Source: Mycoplasma mycoides subsp. capri (lineage in GTDB: Bacteria > Bacillota_I > Bacilli_A > Mycoplasmatales > Mycoplasmataceae). Taken from it: a stretch of 32,000 nt of DNA. Position 1 is the first letter of the stretch; each line of letters begins with the position of its first letter. The notes beneath the pieces are model-generated. The model saw only the letters and a list, made by a program, of their open reading frames with translations, searched no databases and was not told the origin of the DNA. Where the stretch lies: the NCBI RefSeq assembly GCF_018389705.1, contig NZ_CP065581.1:180001-212000 (forward strand), in the 5' to 3' direction. The position numbers were made by a program, and so were the translations under genes. Below are positions 1 through 19,797 of the stretch, in pieces.

Positions 1-1
1 T

Positions 2-286
2 GTTCCAGCATATCAAATTAATTTTGATAATATGGGATATTATGCAATGGGCGCTTATGAATTAGGACCAGATCCAATTATTAATATTGTAGCAGCAGCT
101 CAACAGCATGTTGATCAAGCAATTTCACTAACTTTATTTATGACTGATAAGGCAACAACTAGAGATTTAAACAAAGCATATGTTAATGCTTTTAAACAAG
201 GTTGTTCTTCAATTTATTATGTAAGAATCCGTCAAGATGTTTTAGAAAATAGTGAAAACTATGAATGTGATGCATGTAAAATTTAA
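2..286 (+). CDS. nrdE: Ribonucleoside-diphosphate reductase class Ib alpha subunit, C-terminal end (5'-partial; gene begins upstream of window)
   Basis: Frame is open from the window edge. The tail ...CSSIYYVRIRQDVLENSENYECDACKI* has the YY-x-R-x-R segment and terminal C-x2-C pair typical of NrdE C-termini. A hairpin terminator follows. Confidence 0.8.
   Translation, partial: VPAYQINFDNMGYYAMGAYELGPDPIINIVAAAQQHVDQAISLTLFMTDKATTRDLNKAYVNAFKQGCSSIYYVRIRQDVLENSENYECDACKI
191..286 (+). repeat. Direct repeat copy 1 (96 bp): last 31 codons plus stop of nrdE
   Basis: tttaaacaaggttgTtcttcaatttattatgtaagaatccgtcaagatgttttagaaaatagtgaaaactatgaatgtgatgcatgtaaaatttaa recurs at 2704-2799 with one difference (T205 vs C2718, synonymous Cys TGT/TGC). 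Offset is 2513 bp. Confidence 0.95.
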
Positions 287-307
287 AAGCTTAAATTCAA
301 CAATTTA

Positions 308-340
308 CCTTGCTTTTTTTAAAAAATGCAAGGTTTTTTT
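308..340 (+). terminator. Rho-independent terminator after nrdE copy 1
   Basis: ccttgc (308-313) pairs with gcaagg (328-333), followed by a T7 run (334-340). Confidence 0.6.
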
Positions 341-393
341 GAAAAAAATGTAATATTTTTAATTATTTTTCTAATACTAATATGAGGTGAATT

Positions 394-1239
394 ATGTATA
401 AGAAAAATAAGAAACCAAAATATAATAAAGAGAAAACTATTTGTAAAGAAATAGGTTATTTCTTAAACAAAAATAATGAATATCAAATACATCCTTTTCC
501 ATCAACTGTTAATAAAGTTCCTAAGAAACTACCTGAATTCATTACTAATTTAACATTAGCTTTTTGGAATAATGAAAATGAAATAATTTGTAATCTTGAT
601 AAATGAAATCTTAAGAATGTTACATCATTAAATAGAATGTTTAAAGGTGCTAAAAGTTTTGATCAAGATATATCTAACTGAAACACTAGTAATGTTGTTG
701 ATATGCAACTTTTATTTGATGGAGCTGAAAATTTCAATCAAAATCTAAATAAGTGAGATACATCAAATGTTTTAAATATGGAAGCTATGTTTAGATCTGC
801 TTATCTTTTTAACATAGACTTAAATAAGTGAAATACATCTAAAGTACAAAATATGAGATCTATGTTTTATGAAGCACGCTCGTTTAATGGCGATATTTCA
901 ACATGAGATGTAAGCAGTGTTAAGTATATGGAATATATGTTTTACGGTGTCTTAAAATTTAATCAAGATATTTCATCTTGAAATATCAAAAACGTAATTA
1001 ATACAAGATCTATGTTTAAGAATGCAATAGGATTTAATCAGAACATTTCATATTGAAACACTTCTAATATTAAGGAAATGAGTTGAATGTTTCATAATGC
1101 TAGAAATTTTAATCAAGATATTTCATCTTGAAATGTATCAAAAGTTAATTTATTTAATAGTTTTTCGAATAATTCGAAAATAGATAAAAATAAGAAATAT
1201 TTACCAAAAAAATTTATTTCTAAAATTTCTAAAACATAA
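394..1239 (+). CDS. DUF285 / BspA-like leucine-rich-repeat family protein (Mollicutes repeat family), 281 aa, no signal peptide
   Basis: GAGGTG RBS at 383-388. ORF joins across 9 in-frame TGA codons. About 7.5 tandem 25-aa units of the form (K/S)W(N/D)TSNVxxMxxMFxxAxxFNQDIS. The N-terminus MYKKNKKPKYNKEK is hydrophilic, with no lipobox or TM. Confidence 0.85.
601..1155 (+). repeat. Tandem 75-bp (25-codon) coding repeats inside the DUF285 gene
   Basis: The conserved Trp codon TGA sits at 604, 679, 754, 829, 904, 979, 1054 and 1129, an exact 75-bp register. The string aatcaagatatttcatcttgaaat occurs at both 961 and 1111. Confidence 0.9.
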
Positions 1240-1299
1240 TTACTTAAATAAAATATACTATAGTTGTATAATATGTTTTTTAAAAATGGGGGTGTAAAA

Positions 1300-2019
1300 A
1301 TGAAAGTATCACCATCTGTGTTTAGTAACAAAAGGACTAAAATCTCAGAATTAGGAAAAGATATTTTTAAAAATGAGCGTATGGAATTTAACCATAAATA
1401 TGGCTTAGATGGTCTTGTTATGTTAAACAATATAAAAGACAATGCCATTCCTGTTGTTTTTTTTGACCCTCAGTATAGAGGTGTTCTAGATAAATTATCA
1501 TATGGCAATGAAGGCAAACGACAAATAAAAAGATCAGAATTACAACAAATGACTGAAGAAAAAATAGTTCATTTTATAAGGGAAATGGATAGGGTTCTTA
1601 TCCCAACAGGTCATTTATTTTTATGAGTCGATAAATTTCATTTATGTCAAGGAATTTCGGATTGAATAAAAGATACATCATTATCTATTGTTGATATGAT
1701 TGTGTGAGATAAAGAAAAAATGGGTATGGGCTATCGTACAAGACGCCAATGCGAATATTTAATTGTTTTACAAAAAAAACCAATTAGAGCTAAAAATGTC
1801 TGAAGATTAAGAAATATAAGAGATGTTTGAAAAGAAAAAATAGTAGACAAAGTTCATCCTCATCAAAAACCTATAGAGCTACAAAAAATATTAATTCAAG
1901 CAGTCTCAAATCCTGGTGATGTTATTATGGATGTTGCTGCTGGTAGTTTTTCAGTTTTAACAAGCTGTATTGAAACAGGTAGATTATTTATAGGAACCGA
2001 TATAAAGGAAAAGCAATAA
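1300..2019 (+). CDS. Beta-class N6A/N4C DNA methyltransferase (type II R-M modification subunit), 239 aa
   Basis: TATAAT box at 1267-1272 and GGGGGTG RBS before ATG 1300. Motif IV variant FFDPQY comes first, then HPHQKP and the C-terminal AdoMet motif IMDVAAGSFS; this is the order of the N4/N6 MTase (beta) family. Five in-frame TGA codons. Confidence 0.85.
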
Positions 2020-2696
2020 TGGCATTAATAGAAAAAAGAAAAAAGGAAAGAATAACAAGTGGTTCTTATGAACGTGTTTTTGGAAATAAGGAATTAGGTT
2101 CCTTAATAAGTATGGTGCATTCTACATCTATCTCAAACGGTAACGAATTAGAGAAAATCATCTTAAATAAATGCAAAAAAGTGGTGAAGGATGCAAAGGA
2201 GCTAAATTCCATTTTACAAAAGGAATTTGATGATAGTTGAGATGTTATTATAGTTCCTAAAAAAGTTATTAAAAATTCATCAATTAAAAATTCAATGGAA
2301 CCAGACTTTTTAATAATCCAAAAATCCAGTGAGACATTAAATATAATAGAACTTAAAGATGGATGAGTTTTTGATACAAAAAAGGTCGCAGGAGAGTATC
2401 AGCAGTTAATAAATTTTCAAAATGAAATATCTAAATCAATAAGTTTTATAACAAAAATTTGGATATGCAGTTTCAATAATGATAGTAAAGAAGAAATTTT
2501 TTTAGGTTTAAAAAGTAAAGTTCCTATCAAACATATTATGACAGGTGAAGAGTTTTGTGATCTATTGAATATAAGTAAGCAAGAAATTCAAAAAGAGAGA
2601 CAAAGAGATAGTGAGAAGAATTTAAACTTTTTTATCGCTGAACTTTTAAAAATAGATGATGTAAGAAATAGAATAATTGAAGAATTATCGAAATAA
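2019..2696 (+). CDS. Putative type II restriction endonuclease (PD-(D/E)xK-like), 225 aa
   Basis: ATG overlaps the MTase stop (TAATG at 2017-2021). A candidate catalytic core is EPDFLII...x14...IELKDG (PD...ExK spacing). The size and its position directly after the MTase fit a cognate REase. No family assignment is possible by eye. Confidence 0.55.
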
Positions 2697-2703
2697 TCAC
2701 AAG

Positions 2704-2799
2704 TTTAAACAAGGTTGCTCTTCAATTTATTATGTAAGAATCCGTCAAGATGTTTTAGAAAATAGTGAAAACTATGAATGTGATGCATGTAAAATTTAA
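2704..2799 (+). pseudogene. Direct repeat copy 2: orphan duplicate of the nrdE 3' end (31 codons plus stop, no start)
   Basis: 95/96 identity to 191-286. The upstream sequence (tcacaag) diverges from nrdE, so this is a detached fragment. A separate hairpin terminator follows. Confidence 0.9.
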
Positions 2800-2808
2800 T
2801 AAATTTTT

Positions 2809-2843
2809 AACCAAGTATTAAAATTTTAGTATTTGGTTTTTTT
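2809..2843 (+). terminator. Rho-independent terminator after nrdE fragment copy 2 (probably the ancestral nrdE terminator)
   Basis: aaccaagta (2809-2817) pairs with tatttggtt (2830-2838; one G-U), then a T run to 2843. Confidence 0.6.
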
Positions 2844-2930
2844 ATTTTTTTAATAATAAAAAAACAATTTTTAAAAAGTAGTTTTTAATTCTTATCTTAA
2901 TTTTTTATTTTTAAATTTTTACTAATTTTA

Positions 2931-2959
2931 TTGGAATAGAAGTTAAATAATATTATAAT
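2931..2959 (+). promoter_or_regulatory. Candidate sigma-70-type promoter of purA-purB
   Basis: TTGGAA (2931-2936), 17-nt spacer, TATAAT (2954-2959), about 60 nt upstream of the purA ATG. Confidence 0.5.
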
Positions 2960-3017
2960 GAATTTTTCGATATCTTTTTTAGAAGATATTTTTAAAACAC
3001 GTTCTTAAGGAGAATTT

Positions 3018-4316
3018 ATGAAAAACAACTATAAGTCATTAGTTATTGTAGGTAGCCAATGAGGGGATGAAGGTAAAGGAAAAATAACAGATTATTTTAG
3101 CCAAAAAGCTGATGTTGTTGTAAGATTTGCTGGTGGAGATAATGCTGGGCATATGATTGAATTTAATAATAAACGTCATAAAGTAACAATTATTCCATCA
3201 GGAGTATTTAACCCTAAAGTAAAAAATATTATTGGTAATGGAACAGTAATTAATTTAAAAAGTTTAGTTAATGAAATTAAAAGATTAAATGAATCAAATA
3301 TTAGTACTGATAATGTTTTTATTTCAGATAGAGCACATCTAATTTTTGATTGACATACTTTAATAGATCAATTACAAGAAGAAAATAGAAAAGAAAATAA
3401 AATAGGTACAACAAAAAGAGGAATTGGTCCTACTTATGCTGATAAAGCAGCTAGATATGGAATTAGAATTTGTGATTTTCAAAACCCTAATTTTAAAGAG
3501 ATATTAAAAGAAAACTTAGATTATCATAATCAAATCATTACTAAAGTTTATAATCATGAACCTTTAGATTTTGATGTTATTTATAATGAATTAATAACAA
3601 ATTATCAGTTTATTAAAAATAATATTATTGATAGTGGGTATGAAGTTTCTAATTTAATTAATGAAAATAAATTTGTTCTATTTGAAGGAGCTCAAGGAGT
3701 TTTATTAGATATAGATCATGGGACTTATCCATTTGTAACTTCTTCAAATTGTTCAGCTAATAATGCTTCAATTGGAACTGGAATTCATAATAAACAAATT
3801 AATAAAGTTTTAGGAATTGTTAAAGCTTATAATACTAGAGTTGGGTCTGGAGCTATGGTTAGTGAAATTAAAACAGAACTAGCTCATAAATTAAGAGAAC
3901 GTGGAAGAGAATATGGATCAAACACTGGAAAACCAAGAAGAATTGGATGATTAGATTTAGTTGCTTTAAAATATGCAATTAGAGTTGGTGGAATTGATCA
4001 ATTATTTTTAACTTTATTTGATGTTTTAGATACAGAAACAAAAATTAAAATTTGTACACATTATAAACTAGATGGAAAAATTATTGATTGATTTCCAGCA
4101 AGTGATTATGAATTAAAAAGATGTGAACCAGTTTATGAAGAATTAGATGGTTGAAATCAAGATATTACTAAAGTAACTTCTTTTGAAGAACTACCAATTA
4201 ATGCTCAAAAATACATTAAAAGAATTGAAGAAATTGTAAAAGTTCCATTTCTAGGATTTTCAGTAGGACCAGATCGTAAGCAAACAATCTTAATTAAAGG
4301 TGAATTTGATGATTAG
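3018..4316 (+). CDS. purA: Adenylosuccinate synthetase, 432 aa
   Basis: AAGGAG RBS. N-terminus [17 protein letters not shown] and GGDNAGH are hallmark PurA P-loop/GTP motifs. ORF is continuous across several TGA(Trp) codons. Confidence 0.95.
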
Positions 4317-6356: not shown

Positions 6357-7133
6357 GTGAAAAAAGTCTTAACTACATTAAGTGTTTTAAGTATGATAAC
6401 TATACCTATAACAATAACAGTTTCTTGTTCATCATGAAGAACAGCACCAATGACAGTTAAACAAATTTCAGATGTTTTAGATATTTATAAAAATGAATCT
6501 TTAAAGCAAATAAATTCTGATAATGTTGTAGTAATTAAGGCCAGTGGTCTTTCTAATATAGACATAAACTCTTTACAAAAAATCAAAGAAAACAGAGAAA
6601 ATAAATTAAATAAAAAAATTGAAGAAAATTCAAAACTTATTATAGATAAACTAACAGAAAAAATATCATCTGTTGTTTCAAATAAAATAATCAATTTTGA
6701 AACTATTAGTTCTGATAAAACCAATCTAAAAGACGATATTTTTTCAAAACAAATAACAAAAGATTTTATTAAAGAAAAATGAAAACCATATTATCTTACT
6801 ATTAGTTTAGCTGATATTAATTTCAATTCTTTAGTTTCTCAAAATAAAGATCAGTGATTATCTAAATTAAATGGTTTACAAACTGTTACTTTTAGAAATA
6901 AAGATAAATCTATTTCTATTGATAAAACAAATAAGCCTAAATGATTTGATACTAGTATAAACAAAGTATCTATTATAGATTCACTAAAATTAGACTCTAT
7001 GTTATCTTCAAAAACTGATACAAATTTAAAAATAAATAAAATTGTTTATTTAGTATCATTTAATGCTAATGTTTTAAATTTTAAAGATGCAAAAAACGTA
7101 GCTTTTTATATTGAACACGATTTAAATAACTAG
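6357..7133 (+). CDS. Putative lipoprotein, 258 aa, unknown function
   Basis: GTG start with a GAAAGG RBS. Signal peptide VKKVLTTLSVLSMITIPITITVS-C ends in a lipobox-like VSC. ORF joins across 4 TGA codons. The mature part is hydrophilic. Confidence 0.7.
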
Positions 7134-7147
7134 AAAGGAGAATTAGT

Positions 7148-8989
7148 ATGTCAAACGATAATAAAACAATTGTTTCTAGTAACAAAGATCAATTAGAAGG
7201 ATTAAAAAATATAGTTGCTATTACTGCTTGTGCTGCTGGTGTTGCTCATACTTATATGGCAGCTGATAGTATTAGTAAAGCTGCAAAAGCACTTAATATT
7301 AATGTTCATGTTGAAACACAAGGAACAATTGGTGCTGAAAATGTTATATCAGATAAACAACTACAACAAGCTGATCTTGTTATAATTGCAGCTGATGTTA
7401 AGATTGATACTTCTAGATTTAATGGTAAAAAAATTTATATAACAGGTGTTAATGATGCAATTAAAAATCCTGAATTATTAATTAGAACAGCTTGACAACA
7501 AGCAGTAGAACAAGGTAAAAAAGGAACCAAAGTTGGTGTTTTTACAATTGGAGCTACTAAGAAAAAAGGTATATTAAACCATTTAATGACAGGTATTTCA
7601 TGAGTATTACCATTAATTATTGCAGCAGGAATATTAATGGCTATAGCTAATTTATCTGCATTTCAAACTATTTATTCAGATCAGGTTGGAGATTATACTC
7701 AAGCTTGAGTATTATATGAAAGACCTTTTCCACAATTTTTAATGAATGTAGGTTCTTTAGGATTTAAACTAGTAATACCATTATTTTCTGCATTTATTGC
7801 ATATTCAATTGCTGATAAACCAGGTATAGCTCCTGCTTTAATTGGTGGTTGAATTATTAATGATAATAAAATGCTAGGAATAAATGTTCCGGTTTCAGAA
7901 AATTCTTCTATTGAGCCAGGTGCTGGTTTTTTAGGAGCAATTATTGTTGGATTATTAGCTGGATATCTTGTTAAATTATTAAAGTCTTTACGTTGATGAA
8001 AAATTTTAAAACCTGTTGTTCCATTAATGATTATTCCTATTATTTCAGTATTTATAATTAGTACTTTTGTTAAATTTGTTATTGGAGCACCTATTGCTAA
8101 TTTAGTTTTAGGATTATTTGATGGTTTATCTGCTTTACAAGATAAATTTGCTGGAACTTCATTTGTGATTGCTTTAGTTGTTTCAATGATGATTGCTTTT
8201 GACTTAGGAGGGCCATTTAATAAAACTGCATTAGTATTTGGTACTGTTGTGTTTTATCAATCACTAGCTCAAGTGTTATCAAATGGACAAACTTTTTGAG
8301 ATGCAAACTTTGTTCCTGGAACAGCAGCTCAAGCAGCTATTTCAGTTCCACCTTTAGGAATGTTTTTAGCAACTTTATTATTTAAAAAGAAATTCACACA
8401 AAATGAACGCGTTATGGGAAAAGCTGCTTTTGCTCAAGGTATTGTTGGTATTACAGAAGGAGCAATACCATTTGCTGCAACAGATCCAATTAGAGTAATT
8501 TTTGCAAATGTAATTGGTGCTGCTGTTGCTGGAGTTGGTGTAACTTTAACTAATGCTAAATTTGCAGCAGGTTTAGGTTCACCTATAGGTGTATTTTTAG
8601 GATATATTCAATTAGATGGAATATTAGGTTGACCAATGGGATGAATTATTCCTATTTTACTAGGTATTTTAACAACTGCTTTAATCATAGGATTTACAAA
8701 ACCAAAAATTAAAGGAGAAGAATTAGAACAATTAGAAAAAGAATTAAAAGATAAAAAACTAAAACGTATTCAAGCACATAAAAACTTTAAACAAGCAATT
8801 AAAAGTCCTAAAATGATGTTTACTTTAATTAAAAAAGTGATTAAAAAATGATGAACTAACTATATAAGTGAAGTTAAAGAATTTTATTTAAATGCTTGAA
8901 AAGAAATTAAAAAATACTTTATTTTAAAATGAATGAATACTAAAAATTTCTTTAATAGATTAAAACAAATGTTTAGTAAGAAAAAATAG
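7148..8989 (+). CDS. PTS fructose-family EIIB-EIIC permease, 613 aa, with a long basic C-terminal tail
   Basis: AAAGGAG RBS. The IIB phospho-Cys motif is [15 protein letters not shown]. Multi-TM IIC core has [11 protein letters not shown] and ITEGAIPFA motifs. All ORF-track pieces (7148, 8027, 8360) share one frame and join through TGA. Confidence 0.9.
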
Positions 8990-9000
8990 GAAACTTTATT

Positions 9001-11667
9001 ATGTCATGAAACATATATGTTGTTTGTCACACACATTGAGATAAAGAATGATATTTTACAAAACAAGATAGTGATGTATTATTATGTTCAAATTTAAATC
9101 AAATAACTAAAATATTAAGTTCAAATGATGAATATAAATCATTTACTTATGATGGTCAAGTTTCAATTATTGATGATTATTTAACATATTATCCAGAAAA
9201 TGAAGCACAAATTAAAAAACTGTGTGAACAAAAAAAGCTTATAGTTGGACCATGATATACACAACCAGATTTTTTTAACACAACTTCTGAATCAATAATT
9301 AGAAATTTATTAATTGGTATTAATTTATCTAAAAAATACAATGCAGATTATTTAAAAACAGCTTATGTACCTGATTCTTTTGGGCATAATAACCAAATGC
9401 CTCAAATTTATAAAAGCTTTAATTTAAATAATTTTATTTATTGAAGAGGTATAAAAAATAGTCAATTAAAAAAAGCTGGTACTTTACATTATTGACAAGG
9501 AATAGATAAAACTAAAATCACCTCTTATAACTTTTATTATGGTTATTGAGTACTTGGTTCAAAATTTGCTTATACTAAATTAACAAAAGATAATTTAAAA
9601 AAAGAAGCTATAGAGTTTTTAAAAAATATTACTCCAATCTTAAATCAATTAAAAAAAGTAACCAAAAATTCAAATAATAATTTATTATTACCACTTGGTG
9701 GAGACCAAGCTCCAATTGTAGAACTAACTCCAGAATTTTTTAAACAAGTTAACAAATTATCTAATGATAATTGAATATTAACTGATTATGACGCTTATTT
9801 TAAAAATATAGATAATAGCAATTTAAAAACTATAAAAGGCGAATTAAAATCACCATCTAAAGCAAGAATTCATAAAACAATAGCTTCACAAAGATATGAT
9901 ATTAAACAATTATTAAAAACAGTTGAACATAATTTATATAACGTTTTAGAACCACTAGCTATATATTACAAATATTTAACTAATAAATACGAAAAACAAA
10001 TCATTAATAATGCATTAAAACTAATTTTAACTAGTCAAGCTCATGATTCAATAGGGTGTTGTAATTCAGATGAAACTAATTTAAATATTTATAATAGATT
10101 ATTACAAGCTAATTATTTAATTGAATCTCAAATTACTAAACTTATTAAAAATTTATCTTTAAATATTAATTTAAAAGAAAATCAAGTTTTAGTATTTAAC
10201 TCTAATTCATTTTATAAAAACAATATTTTTAAAGAACTAAATATTTTTACTTCATTTAATAATTTTAAAATTTATCATAATAAAAAAGCTGTTGATTTTA
10301 TTTTATTAGATCAACAATATCATGATGATGGAATGATTGTTAATTTAGAAAAACAAGGAGAAATAAGTAGTAAAACTAAAGGCTTTTATAGTTCAAAAAT
10401 TATCATTAATAATTTAAAAATAGACCCTTTCAAATTTGAAATTTTAGATATAGTTCAATCTGATAAAAAACCAACAAATTCTAGTTTCAATAATATAAAA
10501 ACTAATAGATTTGATATATGAATTAATGATGATAATACTATTACTTATTTAGATAAAATCACTAATAAAAAATACCATAATCAATTTATGATTTATGCTC
10601 AACATGATTTTGGTGATTCTTATGATTATTCACCATTAACTGAAACAAATCAAATAATTTCAAAACTAATAGATATAAAAATTGATAAAGTAGAATACAG
10701 TTCTAATAACAATGTTTTAATTCAATTAAAAAATACTTATCAAATACCATATGATACAACAAAAACAAAATATATAAGTCAAGAATTTGATATTAGTTTA
10801 TTATTTACAAATGATCCAATTATTAAAATAAAAATTAATACTTTAAATAAGGCAACACAAATAAGATGAAGAATAATTTCAAATTGTGATCAAATAAATA
10901 ATTATTCTTATGCTGATCAATGCTATTGTGAAATAAAAAGACCAGTAGAACTAACTAAAGACTTATTAGTTTGAAAAAAAGAAAATTGAGTAGAAAAACC
11001 TGTTGGAATTGAAACTAATGAAAGTTATGTTTATTTAAAATCTAATAGATCAAAAACAGGATTTGTTACACTTGGTACTAATGAGTATGAAATTATTAAT
11101 AAAAAAGAAATTCATTTAACTTTATTTAGAAGTATTGATGTATTAGGAAGAAATAATTTATTATGAAGACCAAATAGAGCTAGTGGTACTAGTGAGTTTA
11201 GTATAAAAACTGATGATGCTAGATTATTGTATAAAAATCTTGAATTTAATTTATATTGATTTGATATAAATAGTTCTACTAATATAGCTCAATTAGCAAA
11301 TAATTTAATAACTCCAGTTTGTTATTATCAAAATCAAAGATTTAATAATTTAAAAAAACGTTTTGACAGATTTTTATTTATAAATGACAAAATAGATACT
11401 AATAAAATACCAATTTATTCACTTATTAAAAACTTAAATAAAAATATCATTATTAAAACAATAAAACTTGCTGAAAATGATGATTTTGTTATCATTAGAT
11501 GTTTTAACAATTCAAAAACAAACCAACAATTTAGTTTATTAATAAATAATCAATTAGTAAGTTTTAATAAGTTAAATATGTTAGAAGAAATAAAAAATAA
11601 AGATCTTAAAACTGATTGATTAAGACCATATGAAATAGGTACTTATTCATTAAAATTATTTAAATAA
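9001..11667 (+). CDS. Glycoside hydrolase family 38 alpha-mannosidase (MngB-like), 888 aa
   Basis: N-terminal VVCHTHWDKEWYF, then GPWYTQPD, VPDSFGH, GGDQAP and SQAHDSIGCC, which are canonical GH38 blocks. I translated 9001-10350 by hand and found no TAA/TAG. Confidence 0.9.
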
Positions 11668-11675
11668 AGGAAGAT

Positions 11676-12134
11676 ATGAATAAAGAAATATTTAATATAA
11701 ATCATGTTTTTATAGATGTTATAGCTAATTCTAAAAAACAAGCTTTTGAAATTATTGCTTTAAAATTTCATCTACTAGGTTTTACAACAGATAAAAACAA
11801 AGCTCTTAAAGGTTTAAAAAAAAGAGAAAAAGAAGGTTCAACAGGATTTAATGATGGAATTGCTATTCCTCATGCAAAAATTAAAGAAATCACAAAACCT
11901 GGAGTATTTGTTTTTAAATTTAAAAATGGTGTTGAATGAGATTCTATTGATAATAGTTTAGTTACAATCGCTATTGCTTTAGCTATTCCAGAAAATGATA
12001 GTGCAAATGATCATTTAAAAATTTTAAGTAGTATTGCTAGAAAATTAGTTGATGATGATTTTAGAAAAGACTTAAATAAAGCTAATAATGTTGATCAGTT
12101 ATATCAATTAATTAGTAAAGTTGAGATTATTTAG
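11676..12134 (+). CDS. PTS EIIA component (fructose/mannitol type 2), 152 aa
   Basis: Active-site His motif GFNDGIAIPHAKI. Resembles the IIA domain of fruA in this window (AIGDGIAIPHTL). Confidence 0.9.
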
Positions 12135-12135
12135 T

Positions 12136-13014
12136 ATGGTATTAGTTTTTGATGTTGGTGGAATGTCTACTAAAATTGCTTTAATTGATAGTAAAACAGA
12201 TCAAATTATAATAAAAGATCAAATAATTTATTCTAATTTTATAAATGGTCAATCTTTATTATTTGAAATTAAAAAAAAGATTAATCAATTTAAAAATAAT
12301 GATCTAAAAGCAATTTGTATTTCTAGTTGTGGAATTATTAATTCAATTAGTGGAGAAATTTCAGGTTCTTCAGCTATTAAAGATTATTATTTAATAAACT
12401 ATAAAAAAGATTTAAAAGAATTTAATATACCAATTTTTATTGAAAATGATGCTAATTGTGCTGCTATTTGTGAATCTGAAATAGGAGTTGTTAAAAATAA
12501 TAAAAACGCTGTTTTTTTAGTAATTGGAACTGGAATTGGTGGAGCAATTATTATAAATAAAATGCTATATAAAGGAAGTAATTTATTTGCTGGAGAATTT
12601 GGATGTAGTTTAGCTAAGATTCAAAATAATCAATATATTAATGCTTCAGAAAGTTATTCAGCAAAAGCTATTGAAACTAACTATTTTACTTTAACAAATA
12701 AAAAAATAACAGCTAAAGAAATTTTTAATAAATATAAAGAAGATAAAGTTGCTAGAAAAGTTATAAATAAAACAATTAATGGTCTTTGTAAACTAATGAT
12801 TAACATCACAACTATTATTGATCCAGAAGTGTTTGTAATTGGTGGAGCTATTAGTCAAAATCAATTATTTATCAACTTATTAAATAAAAAGTTTAAAAAA
12901 TATTTGATTATGTCTAATATTAATTTAAATATAAAGATTAAACCAGCAATGTTTTTTAATGATGCTAATATTTATGGAGCTTATCTTTTATATAAAAAGG
13001 ATTTATATGTTTAA
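12136..13014 (+). CDS. ROK-family sugar kinase, 292 aa
   Basis: N-terminal LVFDVGGMSTKIALID (DxGGT-type ATP site) and ROK block GTGIGGAIIINKMLYKGSNLFAGEFG. ATG 12136 lies 1 nt after the IIA stop. Confidence 0.8.
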   Translation: MVLVFDVGGMSTKIALIDSKTDQIIIKDQIIYSNFINGQSLLFEIKKKINQFKNNDLKAICISSCGIINSISGEISGSSAIKDYYLINYKKDLKEFNIPIFIENDANCAAICESEIGVVKNNKNAVFLVIGTGIGGAIIINKMLYKGSNLFAGEFGCSLAKIQNNQYINASESYSAKAIETNYFTLTNKKITAKEIFNKYKEDKVARKVINKTINGLCKLMINITTIIDPEVFVIGGAISQNQLFINLLNKKFKKYLIMSNINLNIKIKPAMFFNDANIYGAYLLYKKDLYV

Positions 13015-15768: not shown

Positions 15769-16341
15769 TTATTTAATATCTATTTTAAAACCTTCATACT
15801 CATAAGATTTAATAATACTTTTAATATATACAGTTCTATCATTAATTTTATTTGTTAAGTTGTTTTTAATTAGTAATTTAAGATTAGTTGAATCAATTAA
15901 AGAATTAATCATTGCTAATAAGTAATCATCTTTATTTATATTAGTTCAATTAACAACTACATTTAGTTGTTTTTTTAATATTAAATCTAATCAAATTCTC
16001 ATAGATCTGCCATTACCTTCTCTAAATGGATGACAAATATTCATTTCAACATATTTATCTATTATTTGATCAAATGTATCTTGTTTCATATTATCAACAA
16101 GTTCTAAGTTTTGTTTTAAATATCTTGCTAAACAGAACATAGCATTATTTTTAGATATATTTACATTTCTAATTTGTCCATTAAAGTCAAATACATCTTT
16201 AAAAACATAAGAATGTATTTGGCTTAAACCTTTAAAAGTACCTATTTCAAATGTATTTAATAAATTCTTATCTCATAACTCTAATAAGTGTTTAACAGAT
16301 AAATTAATCTCAAATTCTTCTTCTATAAAATTAGCTTTCAT
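15769..16341 (-). CDS. fic: Class III Fic-domain AMP-transferase (NmFic-like), 190 aa
   Basis: Reverse-strand translation gives the Fic motif [12 protein letters not shown] within [29 protein letters not shown]. The C-terminus has SYEYEG, matching the autoinhibitory (S/T)xxxE(G/N) helix. At about 190 aa with C-terminal placement, this fits class III. Confidence 0.9.
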
Positions 16342-16710
16342 ATATTTACTATTATTATTAACGTATTTATTTATGAATTAATTATATATTTTATTAAGTT
16401 TATAAAAAGTTAAATATTAATAAAAAATCTTATTAAATTAAGTCTAAAAACCATTTTTATTTTAAATTATAAAAAAACACAAAAAGTGTAGTAAATACAG
16501 GGTTTATTTAAAAAACCAGGTATTTTTAGCTTATTTAGAGAATTTTTTTTAAATTTCGTCAAAAATAGTATATACAAAAGAGAATAATTGCTTTATAATA
16601 TATTGTTTTTTTTAAAAATAGTGCCAAAACCCCTTTTCTAATTTATAAATAAAATAAAATTAAATAGAATACAAATTATTTGAAAGTAAAACATGAAAAA
16701 GGATGGTTAT

Positions 16711-19700
16711 ATGAAAAAACTATTGGCCTTACTTGCAGTTACAAGTATTCTAACATCATCTGGATTGACTTATGTAATACATGAAAACGTTACTAGAAAA
16801 TCTAACAGAGTTGATGAAAGAAAGACTTTTGAACAAGAATTAAAAGATCTTTCTATAAAATTAGATAATTACAAAAAAAACTTATATTCAACTGATAAGA
16901 AATTTAAAAACTTAACAGCTGAAGATATTTTAAATAACGGAACTATTAGATCATTAGAAAAGGATTTAGCTTATATTAATAAACAAATTGAAGCTAATAA
17001 TAATGAAATTACAGCCAAAAATGATCAAATTAAAAAATTAACTGAAGATATTAAAACAGCACAAGACACAATCAAAAAATTAGAAAAAGAAAATCCAACT
17101 AATAAAACTAAGATTGAAGAATTAAAAAATTCTAAAAAAGAATGAGAAACAAAAGCATTTAATAGTAAAAAAGAACTAGAAAAAAAACAAAAAGAAGTTA
17201 GTGAATTAAAATCTCAACTAGAAAATGTTCAAGCTCAAAAACTTTCAATTGAAAAAACAATTAAGAATATTTCAAAAAACCTTAATTCATTAGATAAAAA
17301 ATCAAAAGAAGAACAAGATCAAATTCAAAAACTTCAAAAAGATATTGATAGTTTATCTAAAATAATTAAGAAAAAAGAAGAAGAACTTGAACCTGTTATA
17401 AAAGTAAAAGATGAATTTAAAAGAGAAATTTTAAGACTATCTAGTGAAAAAAGTGCTATTGATTCACAATTAAATAAATTAAATGCAAATCAACAAAAAT
17501 CTACTGAACTTAAAAATAAAGTTGAAGCTTTAAAAAAACAAAACAAAGAGTTGGAAAGCCAAATTAATAAACTTTCAGAAAGTAAAAAAAATTTAGAAGA
17601 AAGACGTCAAATATTAGAACTTGATGCCCAACGTGCTGTTAAACATTTAGTTGATAAAATTAAAGAATTATATGATCTAATTGATAAAACAAATAAAGAA
17701 ATTAATAAATTAAACAAAGAATCAGATGATTTAAAACAAGAACTTATCCAATTGAATACTAATAAAAAGTATTTAGAAATGCAAAAAAATAAAATAACCG
17801 GACCTTTAGAAGAAAAAATTAAAAAAGAAAAAGAATTACAAGAAAAATTAAAAGATATTAAAGATACACTTTCTAAATTAGACCTTAAAAAAGAAAAACT
17901 TAAAAATCTAGAAAAAGAATTAAAAGAAAAAGAAACTGATATTGATAATTTAAACAAAGAAGATAAAAAAATACAAGAAGAAATTAAAAAAATAACTGAA
18001 GAAGTATCTAAAGAACAAAAGACTTTACTTTCTAAAAAATCTAAAGTAGATGAACTAAAAAAACAAATTGATAAAAAAGATGCAGAACTTGAACAAATTA
18101 AAAAGGATATTTCTTCAAAAGCTAATGAAATAGAAGGATTAAATTCTCAAATCAAAAATCTTGAAAAAAATAAAACAGAAAAAGAATCAAGATTAGCTGA
18201 GCTTGAAAGAGAACACAAAGAAAGTGATAAACAATTAGAAGCTGAAGTAACCAATTTAAATAAAGCTATAGTTTCAGCTAATAATGAAAAACAAGATAAA
18301 GAAAACCAAAAAACTGTTTTTGAATCTAAATTAGAAAAAATTAAAAAAGAAGTTGCGGTTGAAAAAGAAAAGAAAAATAAATTAGAAATTGAAATCGAAA
18401 AAGAAAATAGCAATATTAAAGAAAAAGAAAAATTAATATTAGAGCAAGATTCTAAACTAAAAGAAAACAAAAAGCAAAATGAAACTCTTAAGAATGAAAT
18501 TTCTAAAACCAAAGAAGATATTAAAGAAGCTGAAAGAATAGTATCTGAAGCCCCAAGAAGAAAAGATGAGCTTCAAGAAGCAGATGTTACAATACATAAA
18601 GTTTTAGAAGAGCAAAATAGAGAAAAAGAAACTTTAAAAAATAAAATAATTGAAAAAAATAAGCAGATAGATGAGGTAAAAGAAAATATTAGAAAAGTTG
18701 AAAGAGACAAAGAATCTATAGAGAAAAAGAAAATTGCTAGAAATAGAAGAGTACGTTCATTAGAAAAAGAAATTCAATCTGGTAAAAACGAATACAAAAA
18801 AATTTGAGAAGATTTCTACAACAAAAATAGAAATACAATTTTAAATTACGACAAAGAAGAATATGAAATTGGTAATGAATATTTTGAATTACTAAGAAAA
18901 TATAACGAAAATAATGATTTAGTATCTGAAATAACTCAACGAACTGGTGATATTGGATTAGAAATTGCAGTTTATACAAAAGAAAAAACTAAATTAGAAG
19001 AAAAGATAGCTTCTATTTCTAAAAAAATTAGTGAAGTTAAAATTTTAAAAAATACTTTAGATCAAGAAGCTTTAAGTATAGATAAAGAAAATAAAGATCA
19101 ATTAGAACTTAAAAATGTATTAGAAAAACAAAAAGAAGAGTTAATTGCCAAGATAAATAAAGATCAAGTTGAACGTTCAGAAAAAAGTAAATTATTAGAA
19201 AGAAAAAGACGTGCATTAATAGAAGTTGATAAATCTGCAGAATCTATGCTAAGACAAATTGCTAGTGTTGAACAAGAAGTAGCAAGAGCTAACGATGAAG
19301 TAGAAAAAGCTAAACGTGCATCTCTTAACTCTGATGAACAACTAAAAAAAGCAGAACAAATAAATACTGAGCTTGAAAGTAAATTAAAACTAGAAAAAGA
19401 TAAAAAAGCTTCAAATCAAAAAATAAAAGAAGAATATGAAAGAGAAAAACTTCAACTAGAAAAAGAATTAGATGAAAAAACCCAACAAAAAAATGCAATT
19501 AAATCTAAATTAGAAGAAGCGCAGGCTGAAAACAAAAAGATTTTAGAATCTATTACTAAACAAAATGAAGTTTTTGAAGCTCTTCAAAAACAATATAACG
19601 AACTAAAAGAAGAATTTACTGGATTTAATATATTTAAAGAAGAAGATATCAAAGAATTTATTACTAAAATAAATAGTTTTAAAACCAATTTAGATAACGA

Positions 19701-19797
19701 ATACATTAATAAAGCCAAAGATTTTGCAGATCAACTAGCTAAATATAGAGATAAGTTATATGAAATCAAAAAAGAAATAGAAAAATTAAATGCTTAA
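16711..19797 (+). CDS. Membrane-anchored K/E-rich coiled-coil protein A, 1028 aa
   Basis: AAGGAT RBS before ATG 16711. N-terminus MKKLLALLAVTSILTSSGLTYV is a signal-anchor with no Cys lipobox. The remainder is heptad-like and K/E/L/N/I-rich. I translated the gaps 17143-17551 and 18805-19246 by hand: only two TGA (Trp) codons and no TAA/TAG. Confidence 0.85.

What the first reader, a model, noticed from the sequence alone, without database searches (positions are those of the whole stretch)
191..2799. 2.5-kb R-M/DUF285 cassette bracketed by a 96-bp direct duplication of the nrdE 3' end
Positions 191-286 (the true end of nrdE, including its stop) and 2704-2799 are 95/96 identical. The one difference is a synonymous TGT/TGC at 205 vs 2718. 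Homology starts abruptly at tttaaacaagg in both copies. Three co-oriented genes lie between the copies: DUF285, an MTase and a putative REase. Each copy has its own, different hairpin terminator (308-340 and 2809-2843). This is the scar expected when an element integrates into the 3' end of a gene while carrying a replacement end. Either Campbell-type single crossover or site-specific integration that reconstitutes the target would produce it. No integrase or transposase is present in the cassette, so the mobilisation mechanism is unexplained.
Basis: seen in the sequence. Interest (0 to 1): 0.7.

Follow-up and report, generated by a model that had tools for sequence, protein, structure and literature searches.

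The report
Restriction-modification islet inserted at nrdE end
A 2.4-kb block carrying a known restriction-modification system and a repeat-protein gene was inserted at the end of the essential nrdE gene of Mycoplasma mycoides, duplicating the last 96 bases of that gene; some strains of the species lack it, and this way of inserting has been described before in other bacteria.

Summary
Positions 191-286 and 2704-2799 match at 95 of 96 bases. The single difference is a synonymous TGT/TGC. Between the copies lie a DUF285/PARCEL gene, a beta-class N6/N4 DNA methyltransferase and a Type II restriction endonuclease. The endonuclease is 98% identical to the one GenBank names MmyCIV (GANTC) in strain GM12.

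The predicted empty site exists. Three M. mycoides genomes and M. feriruminatoris read nrdE, one repeat copy, then purA. In the three M. mycoides genomes the same 218-nt spacer and terminator follow the single copy. So this is a true insertion/deletion polymorphism.

It is not recent and shows no sign of current mobility:
- Every carrier has the same junction at the same locus.
- Cassette diversity (about 1%) is close to that of the flanking genes.
- In all other carriers the downstream copy is a decayed relic (92/96, Cys-to-Phe or a frameshift) next to a different spacer allele.

This strain's near-perfect repeat arises because its relic and spacer are the allele found in empty-site strains.

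All criteria for the [quoted passage not shown] class (Furuta et al. 2010) are met. I rate it a new member of a known kind. How the duplication arose remains inferred.

The parts
1..286 (+). 3' end of nrdE (class Ib ribonucleotide reductase alpha subunit), ending in the C-terminal ...YECDACKI tail
   Evidence: TIGR04170 NrdE 2e-24 and PF02867 2e-16. It is contiguous with the full 720-aa nrdE in GM12 and the other loci.
191..286 (+). Repeat copy 1: the working last 31 codons plus stop of nrdE. This copy is nearly invariant among cassette carriers.
   Evidence: Identical in GM12, L099 and 95010, with 1 difference in L098. Identical to the single copy of empty-site strain CP065574.
287..393 (+). 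Cassette-specific leader. It holds a hairpin at 307-333 followed by U7 (to 340), which now terminates nrdE.
   Evidence: Fold of -12.6 kcal/mol. Not significantly similar to either native nrdE-purA spacer allele.
394..1239 (+). Short DUF285/PARCEL (BspA-like) repeat protein of 281 aa. It has no hydrophobic N-terminus or lipobox and contains 25-aa (75-nt) repeats. An alternative start lies at 382.
   Evidence: PF03382 3e-96 and TIGR02167 1e-32. It matches only profile positions 209-379 of the Mbov_0838 lipoprotein family. 75-nt periodicity at 845-1145. It has 9 TGA-Trp codons. No homologue above about 51% identity among the hits listed.
1300..2019 (+). Beta-class N6/N4 DNA methyltransferase, the M subunit (239 aa; alternative start at 1273)
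   Evidence: PF01555 1.7e-20. PADLOC MTase_II 7e-79. It has 5 TGA-Trp codons.
2019..2696 (+). Type II restriction endonuclease, the R subunit (225 aa). Its start codon overlaps the M gene's stop codon by one base (position 2019). A PD...ELK motif is visible.
   Evidence: PADLOC REase_II 3.8e-44 over the full length. It is 98% identical to cluster P0001 and identical to member P0122. Members of that cluster are named 'GANTC-recognizing Type II R-M system (MmyCIV) endonuclease subunit' and 'PDDEXK family nuclease'.
2697..2703 (+). Junction heptamer TCACAAG between the R stop codon and repeat copy 2. It is the same in every carrier.
   Evidence: window, GM12, L098, L099, 95010 and the Logan contigs.
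2704..2799 (+). Repeat copy 2: a displaced relic of the nrdE 3' end with no gene body upstream. Here it is the 'A' allele, 96/96 identical to the single copy of empty-site strain CP068010.
   Evidence: In the other carriers this copy is the 'B' allele with 4 differences, including Cys-to-Phe or a 1-nt deletion.
2800..3017 (+). Native nrdE-purA spacer, allele A. It holds the original nrdE terminator hairpin at 2809-2838 followed by U7, which now ends the M-R operon. A purA promoter-like site lies at 2931-2959.
   Evidence: It differs at only about 2 positions from the 218-nt spacer of empty-site strain CP068010. Fold of -12.0 kcal/mol, z -3.3. Promoter-like match of 10/12.
3018..4316 (+). purA (adenylosuccinate synthase), the right-hand neighbour of the insertion site
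   Evidence: Identical to P0194, with PF00709 on its homologues.

Best explanation
**What it is.** This is a strain-variable genomic islet of Mycoplasma mycoides. A 2,417-bp block (287-2703) was inserted once, by illegitimate (non-homologous) recombination, at the very end of the essential gene nrdE. The insertion duplicated the last 96 bp of nrdE. This is the "insertion with long target duplication" seen for restriction-modification units in other bacteria.

**What the block carries.**
- Its own terminator.
- A short DUF285/PARCEL gene.
- The M-R operon of the MmyCIV-type (GANTC) Type II restriction-modification system.

**What the two repeat copies do.**
- The upstream copy is the working end of nrdE, including the C-terminal Cys pair.
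- The downstream copy is a functionless relic.
- The old nrdE terminator now ends the M-R operon.

**What follows from that.**
- The islet encodes no recombinase.
- I infer that since its origin it has been inherited, exchanged between strains and probably lost by ordinary homologous recombination in nrdE, purA and the 96-bp repeats.
- In this strain the relic and spacer were replaced by, or the islet was recombined into, the 'A' allele typical of empty-site strains. That is why the two copies look almost identical here.

**Shown versus inferred.**
- Shown: the duplication, the empty sites, a single shared junction, decay of the relic in other strains, the R-M identity by profile, and the absence of mobility genes.
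- Inferred: how the 96-bp duplication was physically made, the direction of the flank exchange, and GANTC activity. The last rests on the GenBank annotation only.
For: **The repeat is real.** 95/96 identity and non-random.

**Empty sites exist.** CP068010 (L089), CP065574 (L103) and CP065579 (L104) read nrdE, one copy, the 218-219-nt A spacer, then purA. In L089 the spacer matches window 2800-3017 apart from about 2 positions; L103 and L104 carry close A-type variants. M. feriruminatoris is also empty.

**One junction everywhere.** All carriers share ...GAAATAATCACAAG|TTTAAACAAGG and the same locus. These are GM12, CP065577 plus 3 similar places, JAUYYQ plus 6, 95010 and JFAE01.

**The cargo is a Type II R-M pair.**, with source names.

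**The published criteria are met.** Furuta 2010 requires R and M in the insert, an insert under 20 kb, a duplication over 30 bp and no other mobile element. All four hold.

**The polymorphism is old.** Cassette differences are 19-28 per 2,420 nt. nrdE shows 16-38 per 2,067 nt and purA-hpt 32-57 per 3,150 nt. Carriers and empty strains are intermixed.

**The downstream copy is a relic.** In the other carriers it has TGT changed to TTT, or a 1-nt deletion in the Cys codon. It also keeps states shared with M. feriruminatoris (G58, T69, A18) that the working copy has lost.

**The window's relic is the empty-site allele.** It equals the L089 single copy at 96/96, including C at repeat position 15, and carries the A spacer.

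**The cassette comes from, or has long lived in, a code-4 organism.** It has 16 TGA-Trp codons against 2 TGG. The nearest endonuclease relatives, at 53-61% identity, are in Mesoplasma and Spiroplasma.
Against: - No step of the insertion mechanism was observed.
- In most carriers the two copies are different alleles at 3-4 sites. A simple target duplication makes identical copies. This therefore needs later recombination that ran right up to a homology boundary, and it needs that at least twice.
- The same junction joined to two resident haplotypes (A and B) is also what a fixed-point site-specific crossover or repeated Campbell integration would give.
- The origin of the 107-nt leader and of the DUF285 gene is unknown.
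- No donor genome was found.
- Only about 12 distinct M. mycoides loci were examined. The species' own record appeared masked or absent in the genome scan.
Confidence: 0.6

Rival explanations
1. Site-specific integration by a recombinase supplied in trans. The block would be an integrase-less, att-flanked element, like the cis-mobilisable elements left by decayed integrative elements. Its attP would carry a copy of the nrdE 3' end, and the crossover would fall at the left edge of the 96-bp identity block.
For: The upstream copy is constant with the cassette. The downstream copy is entirely of the resident type in both backgrounds: B in GM12, L098, L099 and 95010; A in the window. The switch lies left of repeat position 15-18 in both, and the junction is identical. 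The target is the 3' end of a gene, with the reading frame restored.
Against: There is no integrase or recombinase in the cassette or next to it. A 96-bp identity block with no tRNA is unusual for att sites. The cassette has diverged about as much as the flanks, so there is no sign of recent independent entries. To my knowledge (not tested here), mollicute integrative conjugative elements use DDE transposases with short duplications. No phage or plasmid carries the block.
Confidence: 0.12
2. Campbell-type spread. Recombination between the two repeats loops out a circle carrying one 96-bp copy plus the cassette. After transfer, the circle re-integrates into an empty-site strain by a single homologous crossover within the 96 bp. 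This would explain the window's A-type arrangement.
For: The direct repeats are long enough for RecA. The empty A-type site is 96/96 identical to the window's downstream copy. Kobayashi's group proposed an "amplify and release" life cycle for repeat-flanked R-M units.
Against: It explains spread, not origin. The crossover would have to fall in the first 14 nt of the 96 to give T at 205 and C at 2718. The three Logan contigs that looked like loops (L086, L087, L100) end exactly where 31-mers become shared between the two copies: repeat positions 19 or 28 on the left where a left end lies in the repeat, and 48 on the right. They are assembly artefacts. A non-replicating circle has no known transfer route.
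Confidence: 0.13
3. Homology-facilitated illegitimate recombination from a related donor in which the leader-DUF285-M-R block natively follows nrdE. The left end would be anchored by nrdE homology. The right end would be joined illegitimately 96 bp before the recipient's stop codon.
For: It directly yields an upstream copy of donor type and a downstream copy of resident type. That fits the two different alleles seen in most carriers. The leader has its own terminator placed as a native nrdE terminator would be.
Against: No donor-type tract is visible in nrdE of carriers. GM12 versus the empty strain L089 shows 32 evenly spread differences. The upstream copy is identical to the ordinary M. mycoides subsp. 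capri allele of empty strains. No genome with that native arrangement was found. The endonuclease has no relative above 61% outside M. mycoides. M. capricolum and M. yeatsii do not even have nrdE next to purA.
Confidence: 0.1

Closest known systems
Insertion of restriction-modification gene units with long target duplication (Nobusato et al. 2000, as cited in Furuta, Abe & Kobayashi, Nucleic Acids Res 2010, PMC2853133)
   Same: R and M genes lie in a small insert of 2.4 kb. The insert is flanked by direct repeats far longer than transposon duplications (96 bp). A related genome of the same species holds one uninterrupted copy. There is no transposase or integrase. In the published H. influenzae examples the repeat also overlaps the 3' end of a gene.
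   Different: The host is a mollicute, a group not among the taxa listed in that survey. The duplication covers 32 codons of an essential gene, so one copy must stay functional. A third gene (DUF285) and a terminator ride along. In most carriers the two copies are different alleles.
MmyCIV (GANTC) Type II restriction-modification system of M. mycoides subsp. capri GM12 / JCVI-syn1.0 parent (GenBank CP001621 annotation)
   Same: It is the same system at the same locus. The endonuclease is 98% identical to the GM12-type representative P0001. DNA identity is 97.4% over 6 kb.
   Different: In GM12 the downstream nrdE relic and spacer are the B allele, and the relic has a frameshift. Here they are the A allele and the relic is intact. 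Specificity and activity were not tested here.
Integrase-borne islands, prophages and their integrase-less remnants (cis-mobilisable elements) inserted in the 3' end of a gene with att duplication
   Same: There are direct repeats made of the 3' end of the target gene. The gene is reconstituted by the element-side copy. The displaced native end lies downstream.
   Different: No integrase, no tRNA and no conjugation or phage genes are present. No excised form has been seen. The insertion site is single and the cassette's diversity is old.
Homologous M-R pair in Mesoplasma-like genomes and on Campylobacter conjugative plasmids
   Same: The same MTase and REase families occur in the same M-then-R order.
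   Different: In the Mesoplasma-like contigs the pair sits just after a 5S rRNA gene, with no DUF285 gene and no flanking long repeat. In Campylobacter it is plasmid-borne. Endonuclease identity to the Mesoplasma homologue is 53% at the protein level. DNA identity to the Campylobacter plasmids is about 70% over a quarter of the cassette.

Membership tests
R-M insertion with long target duplication (criteria of Furuta et al. 2010) | Both an R gene and an M gene lie inside the inserted segment | tested here: met
   PF01555 and PADLOC MTase_II 7e-79 for 1300-2019. PADLOC REase_II 3.8e-44 for 2019-2696.
R-M insertion with long target duplication (criteria of Furuta et al. 2010) | Insert shorter than 20 kb | tested here: met
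   2,417 bp between the copies, with a spacing of 2,513 bp.
R-M insertion with long target duplication (criteria of Furuta et al. 2010) | Target duplication longer than 30 bp, with both copies aligning to a single copy in a related genome that lacks the insert | tested here: met
   96 bp. Single copies in L089, L103 and L104 (same species) and in L094-L097 (M. feriruminatoris).
R-M insertion with long target duplication (criteria of Furuta et al. 2010) | No other mobile element or mobility gene accounts for the insertion, and the repeat is not a tRNA-type att site | tested here: met
   Only three ORFs, none a recombinase. No tRNA or Rfam hit. The flanks are nrdE and purA. A recombinase acting in trans cannot be excluded.
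Type II restriction-modification system, GANTC (HinfI/MmyCIV type) | Adjacent, co-oriented MTase and REase genes of Type II families | tested here: met
   The R start codon overlaps the M stop codon by one base at position 2019.
Type II restriction-modification system, GANTC (HinfI/MmyCIV type) | Methylation and cleavage at GANTC | not testable with these tools
   This rests only on the source name of cluster member P0123. GANTC is not depleted in the window, with 56 sites observed against 61 expected.
Integrase-mediated genomic island or prophage | Tyrosine or serine recombinase gene at one end of the element | tested here: not met
   None in 287-2703 or in the neighbouring genes.
Integrase-mediated genomic island or prophage | Excised circular form with attP and a restored attB | not testable with these tools
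   The Logan contigs that begin and end in the repeat are explained by k=31 graph breaks. Read-level data are needed.
Insertion sequence or composite transposon | Transposase, terminal inverted repeats and a short (2-14 bp) target duplication | tested here: not met
   No transposase. Only low-complexity A/T inverted matches at 74%. The duplication is 96 bp.

The most novel reading that the evidence does not exclude
The cassette may be a still-active, recombinase-free or trans-mobilised integrative unit that targets the last 96 bp of nrdE with a fixed crossover at the left edge of the repeat. On this reading it entered M. mycoides at least twice, once into the B haplotype and once into the A haplotype. 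That would be either the "virus-like life cycle" proposed but never demonstrated for restriction-modification units, or a kind of site-specific element not described in mollicutes.
Probability: 0.12. Interest if true: 0.7.

Novelty: new member of a known kind. Interest (0 to 1): 0.35.

Why it matters
**For restriction-modification mobility.** This is a clean example, in a mollicute, of a restriction-modification unit inserted with a long target duplication. Carriers, empty sites, an outgroup and decayed relics are all available within one species.

**For testing the proposed life cycle.** That range of states makes the proposed invade, amplify and release cycle of such units testable in an organism whose genome can be rebuilt at will (GM12 and the JCVI-syn lineage).

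**Practical points.**
- The 96-bp repeats are a potential site of spontaneous deletion or amplification next to an essential gene.
- Presence or absence of the GANTC system is a barrier to take into account in genome transplantation and strain crosses.
- The short ORF over the downstream copy, annotated in some genomes as a 40-50-aa protein, is a gene relic and not a gene.

Tried and rejected
- **Table-11 ORF calls.** They split every gene at TGA. All genes were re-called with code 4 in Python.
- **purA genome scan.** It returned only three mollicute loci. The query species itself did not appear. In M. yeatsii, Mycoplasma sp. HU2014 and Mesoplasma seiffertii, purA is not next to nrdE, so these were of no use as empty sites.
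- **Is the leader after copy 1 a diverged allele of the native spacer?** I tested 287-393 against the A and B spacers. If homologous, the duplication would be longer. It is not significant: 19-88 of 500 shuffles scored as well. The apparent 105-nt repeat in B-type strains comes from about 6 extra chance matches.
- **Logan contigs as evidence for a circle.** L086, L087 and L100 break inside the repeat, and L086 and L087 both start and end there. Rejected: the ends fall exactly where 31-mers become shared between the two copies.
- **Same PurA protein, isogenic deletion?** CP065574 has the same PurA protein as the window but lacks the cassette. It is not an isogenic deletion derivative, because it differs by 1.3% in DNA.
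- **Composition and site avoidance.** There is no GC anomaly and no GANTC avoidance.
- **Phage and plasmid collections.** No phage match. The only plasmid matches are distant Campylobacter M-R pairs and DUF285 genes.
- **DUF285 homologue search.** It did not list the gene's own orthologues and gave nothing above about 51% identity among the hits listed, so the origin of that gene stays open.
- **Solved structures.** No solved structure resembles the endonuclease by sequence.
- **Literature.** A search for this locus in M. mycoides found only the MmyCI Type III paper.
Full report
**What the window is.** The sequence has 23% G+C and uses TGA as Trp. With genetic code 4 the first 6 kb read: nrdE 3' end, DUF285, DNA methyltransferase, a 225-aa ORF, purA, purB, hpt. 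The window is 99.97% identical over 9.3 kb to the draft assembly GCA_000590435.1 (JFAE01000005.1, locus L102). It is 97.4% identical to M. mycoides subsp. capri GM12 (CP001621, L079). Its endonuclease and PurA proteins are identical to database members P0122 and P0194, both from M. mycoides.

Positions 191-286 and 2704-2799 form a 96-nt direct repeat with one mismatch. No further copy exists in the 32 kb and none is expected by chance. The mismatch (T205/C2718) is a synonymous Cys codon change. Homology begins abruptly at TTTAAACAAGG and ends at the TAA stop. The repeat encodes the last 31 residues of NrdE, including the C-terminal C-D-A-C pair.

Each copy is followed by a different hairpin plus a run of seven U. 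These lie at 307-333 and 2809-2838. The simple terminator scan missed both only because it requires three G-C pairs.

**The cargo.**
- ORF 394-1239 is a short DUF285/PARCEL protein (PF03382, 3e-96) with no signal peptide or lipobox.
- ORF 1300-2019 is a beta-class N6/N4 methyltransferase (PF01555; PADLOC MTase_II, 7e-79).
- ORF 2019-2696 matches a Type II endonuclease profile over its full length (PADLOC REase_II, 3.8e-44).

The endonuclease belongs to a 90%-identity cluster confined to M. mycoides. Members of that cluster are named [quoted passage not shown] and "PDDEXK family nuclease". I did not test specificity.

The three genes hold 16 TGA-Trp codons against 2 TGG. The nearest endonuclease relatives (53-61% identity) are in Mesoplasma and Spiroplasma. 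The cassette therefore comes from, or has long lived in, a code-4 mollicute.

In Mesoplasma-like contigs the homologous M-R pair sits just after a 5S rRNA gene. There it has no DUF285 neighbour and no flanking repeat. Campylobacter conjugative plasmids carry a pair with about 70% DNA identity over a quarter of the cassette. No phage record matches. The M-R pair is thus the conserved unit. DUF285 is a passenger specific to this islet, with no homologue above about 51% identity among the hits listed.

- M. mycoides genomes CP068010 (L089), CP065574 (L103) and CP065579 (L104, plus one similar place) read nrdE, one repeat copy, a 218-219-nt spacer, then purA. In L089 the spacer differs from window 2800-3017 at only about 2 positions; L103 and L104 carry close variants of the same allele.
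- Four M. feriruminatoris genomes are also empty.
- M. mycoides subsp. mycoides genomes and CP068548 have an IS3-family insertion sequence in the same spacer instead.
- In M. capricolum, M. yeatsii, Mycoplasma sp. HU2014 and Mesoplasma seiffertii, purA is not next to nrdE at all.

**Carriers.** These are GM12 and its derivatives, CP065577 (plus 3 similar places), JAUYYQ01 (plus 6), strain 95010 and JFAE01. All have the cassette at this one locus. All share the same right-hand junction...GAAATAATCACAAG|TTTAAACAAGG. In 95010 the R gene is split by an insertion sequence while M is intact.

**The insertion is old, and this strain is the odd one out.** Among M. mycoides subsp. capri strains:
- the cassette differs at 19-28 of 2,420 positions;
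- nrdE differs at 16-38 of 2,067 positions;
- purA-hpt differs at 32-57 of 3,150 positions.

Carriers and empty strains are intermixed in these distances.

In every carrier other than the window and L102, the downstream copy differs from the upstream one at 4 of 96 positions. The differences are A18, G58, T69 and a hit in the second Cys codon: TGT to TTT, or a 1-nt deletion in GM12. That copy is followed by a different, roughly 250-nt "B" spacer allele.

Three of the four differences, and the B spacer itself, match M. feriruminatoris. The B-type relic therefore preserves an older state of the nrdE end, and it has begun to decay.

The window instead carries the "A" allele. Its downstream copy is 96/96 identical to the single copy of empty strain CP068010, including the C at repeat position 15. 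Its spacer is the A spacer of the empty strains and of subsp. mycoides. The A/B difference is confined to about 2704-2930. Beyond that the window is equally distant from all strains.

The 95/96 identity here therefore does not mark a recent insertion. It reflects allele exchange at the right flank, or entry of the cassette into an A-type chromosome.

**Mechanism.** The structure meets every published criterion for "insertion of an R-M unit with long target duplication": R and M in the insert, insert under 20 kb, duplication over 30 bp, a single copy in a related genome, and no other mobile element (PMC2853133). That paper lists cases in Helicobacter, Haemophilus, Neisseria, Campylobacter and others, not mollicutes. 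It attributes them to a property common to R-M systems, such as double-strand breakage, without a demonstrated mechanism.

I take this as the best explanation for the origin of the islet. Homologous recombination in nrdE, purA and the repeats would then account for later spread, flank exchange and loss (confidence about 0.6).

Because the left boundary lies 96 bp inside an essential gene, only events that rebuild the nrdE end could survive. That explains why the duplication is retained.

The main weakness is that the two copies are different alleles in most carriers. This requires recombination tracts that ran right up to a homology boundary. The same pattern would also arise from three rivals:
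- a fixed-point site-specific crossover (0.12);
- Campbell re-integration of a looped-out circle (0.13);
- capture from a donor by one-sided homology (0.10).

None of these is excluded. None has positive support beyond the allele pattern.

Apparent "loop" contigs in Logan assemblies (L086, L087, L100) end exactly where 31-mers become shared between the two copies. They are assembly artefacts.

**Verdict.** The insertion interpretation is confirmed by true empty sites. The "mobile element" reading is only partly supported. The restriction-modification system is already annotated in GM12, and this mode of insertion is a described class. This is a new member of a known kind, of moderate interest.

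Noticed in passing
window 6393-13000 (about) versus L089 13178-14501: The PTS EIIBC / GH38 alpha-mannosidase / EIIA / ROK block that follows hpt in the window and in GM12 is missing in strain CP068010. There hpt is followed by a GH1 fragment and MupG. This is a second large insertion/deletion polymorphism a few kb from the R-M islet.
   Followed up: no
L090-L093 and L108, nrdE-purA spacer (corresponds to window about 2870): All M. mycoides subsp. mycoides genomes examined, and CP068548, carry an IS3-family insertion sequence (HTH_28 plus rve ORFs) at the same point of the A spacer. The same 218-nt spacer has therefore been hit by two different insertions in the species.
   Followed up: partly
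L101 6352-8153 (strain 95010), corresponds to window about 2294-2299: In strain 95010 the restriction gene of this cassette is split by an insertion sequence while the methyltransferase is intact. This is a typical decay of an R-M pair to an orphan methylase. The truncated product is misannotated as an ABC-transporter pseudogene.
   Followed up: partly
window 225-229 and 2738-2742: Each repeat copy contains one GANTC site (GAATC), the annotated target of the cassette's own enzyme. The site exists only because of a T-to-C change at repeat position 39 that is specific to subsp. capri. It is absent from subsp. mycoides and M. feriruminatoris (GAATT). About one 96-nt stretch in six would hold a site by chance (my estimate from base composition), so this may mean nothing.
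   Followed up: partly
window 2677-2799: A 40-codon ORF (TTG start) runs over the end of the R gene into repeat copy 2. It is annotated as a 40-50-aa protein in some genomes (L079, L098, L099). It is the relic of the NrdE tail, not an independent gene.
   Followed up: yes
window 23928-24392: A solitary IS3-type OrfA (HTH_28, 7e-16; HTH_Tnp_1) with no integrase-core ORF after it. It is probably the remnant of an insertion sequence.
   Followed up: partly
window 15769-16341 (minus strand): A 190-aa Fic/DOC-domain protein (PF02661, 3e-11). In strain CP068010 the same gene lies next to a RelB-like gene. This may be a toxin-antitoxin-like pair.
   Followed up: no
window 16693-19797 and 19828-22890: Two tandem genes encode proteins of 1034 and 1020 aa that are very rich in Lys and Glu and look like coiled coils. 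Both have lipoprotein-like N-termini (MKKLLA...). They appear to be paralogues.
   Followed up: no
Campylobacter coli/jejuni plasmids NZ_CP011016, NZ_CP027635, NZ_AP028389 and others: Conjugative plasmids of about 30 kb carry an M-R pair with about 70% DNA identity to window 1167-2376. Other Campylobacter plasmids carry DUF285/BspA genes that match 314-833. Both gene families therefore travel on plasmids in a distant phylum.
   Followed up: no
L098, L099, L101 just after repeat copy 2: The B spacer of three carriers has a 7-nt tandem duplication (AAAACTT) directly after the relic's stop codon. It is absent from GM12 and M. feriruminatoris. It makes the repeat look 105 nt long in BLAST.
   Followed up: yes
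(database behaviour): The homologue search with the DUF285 protein did not list the gene's own orthologues from GM12 and other strains, although that gene is called in those genomes. The hit table shown (best 120 of 132) is dominated by long multi-repeat proteins.
   Followed up: no
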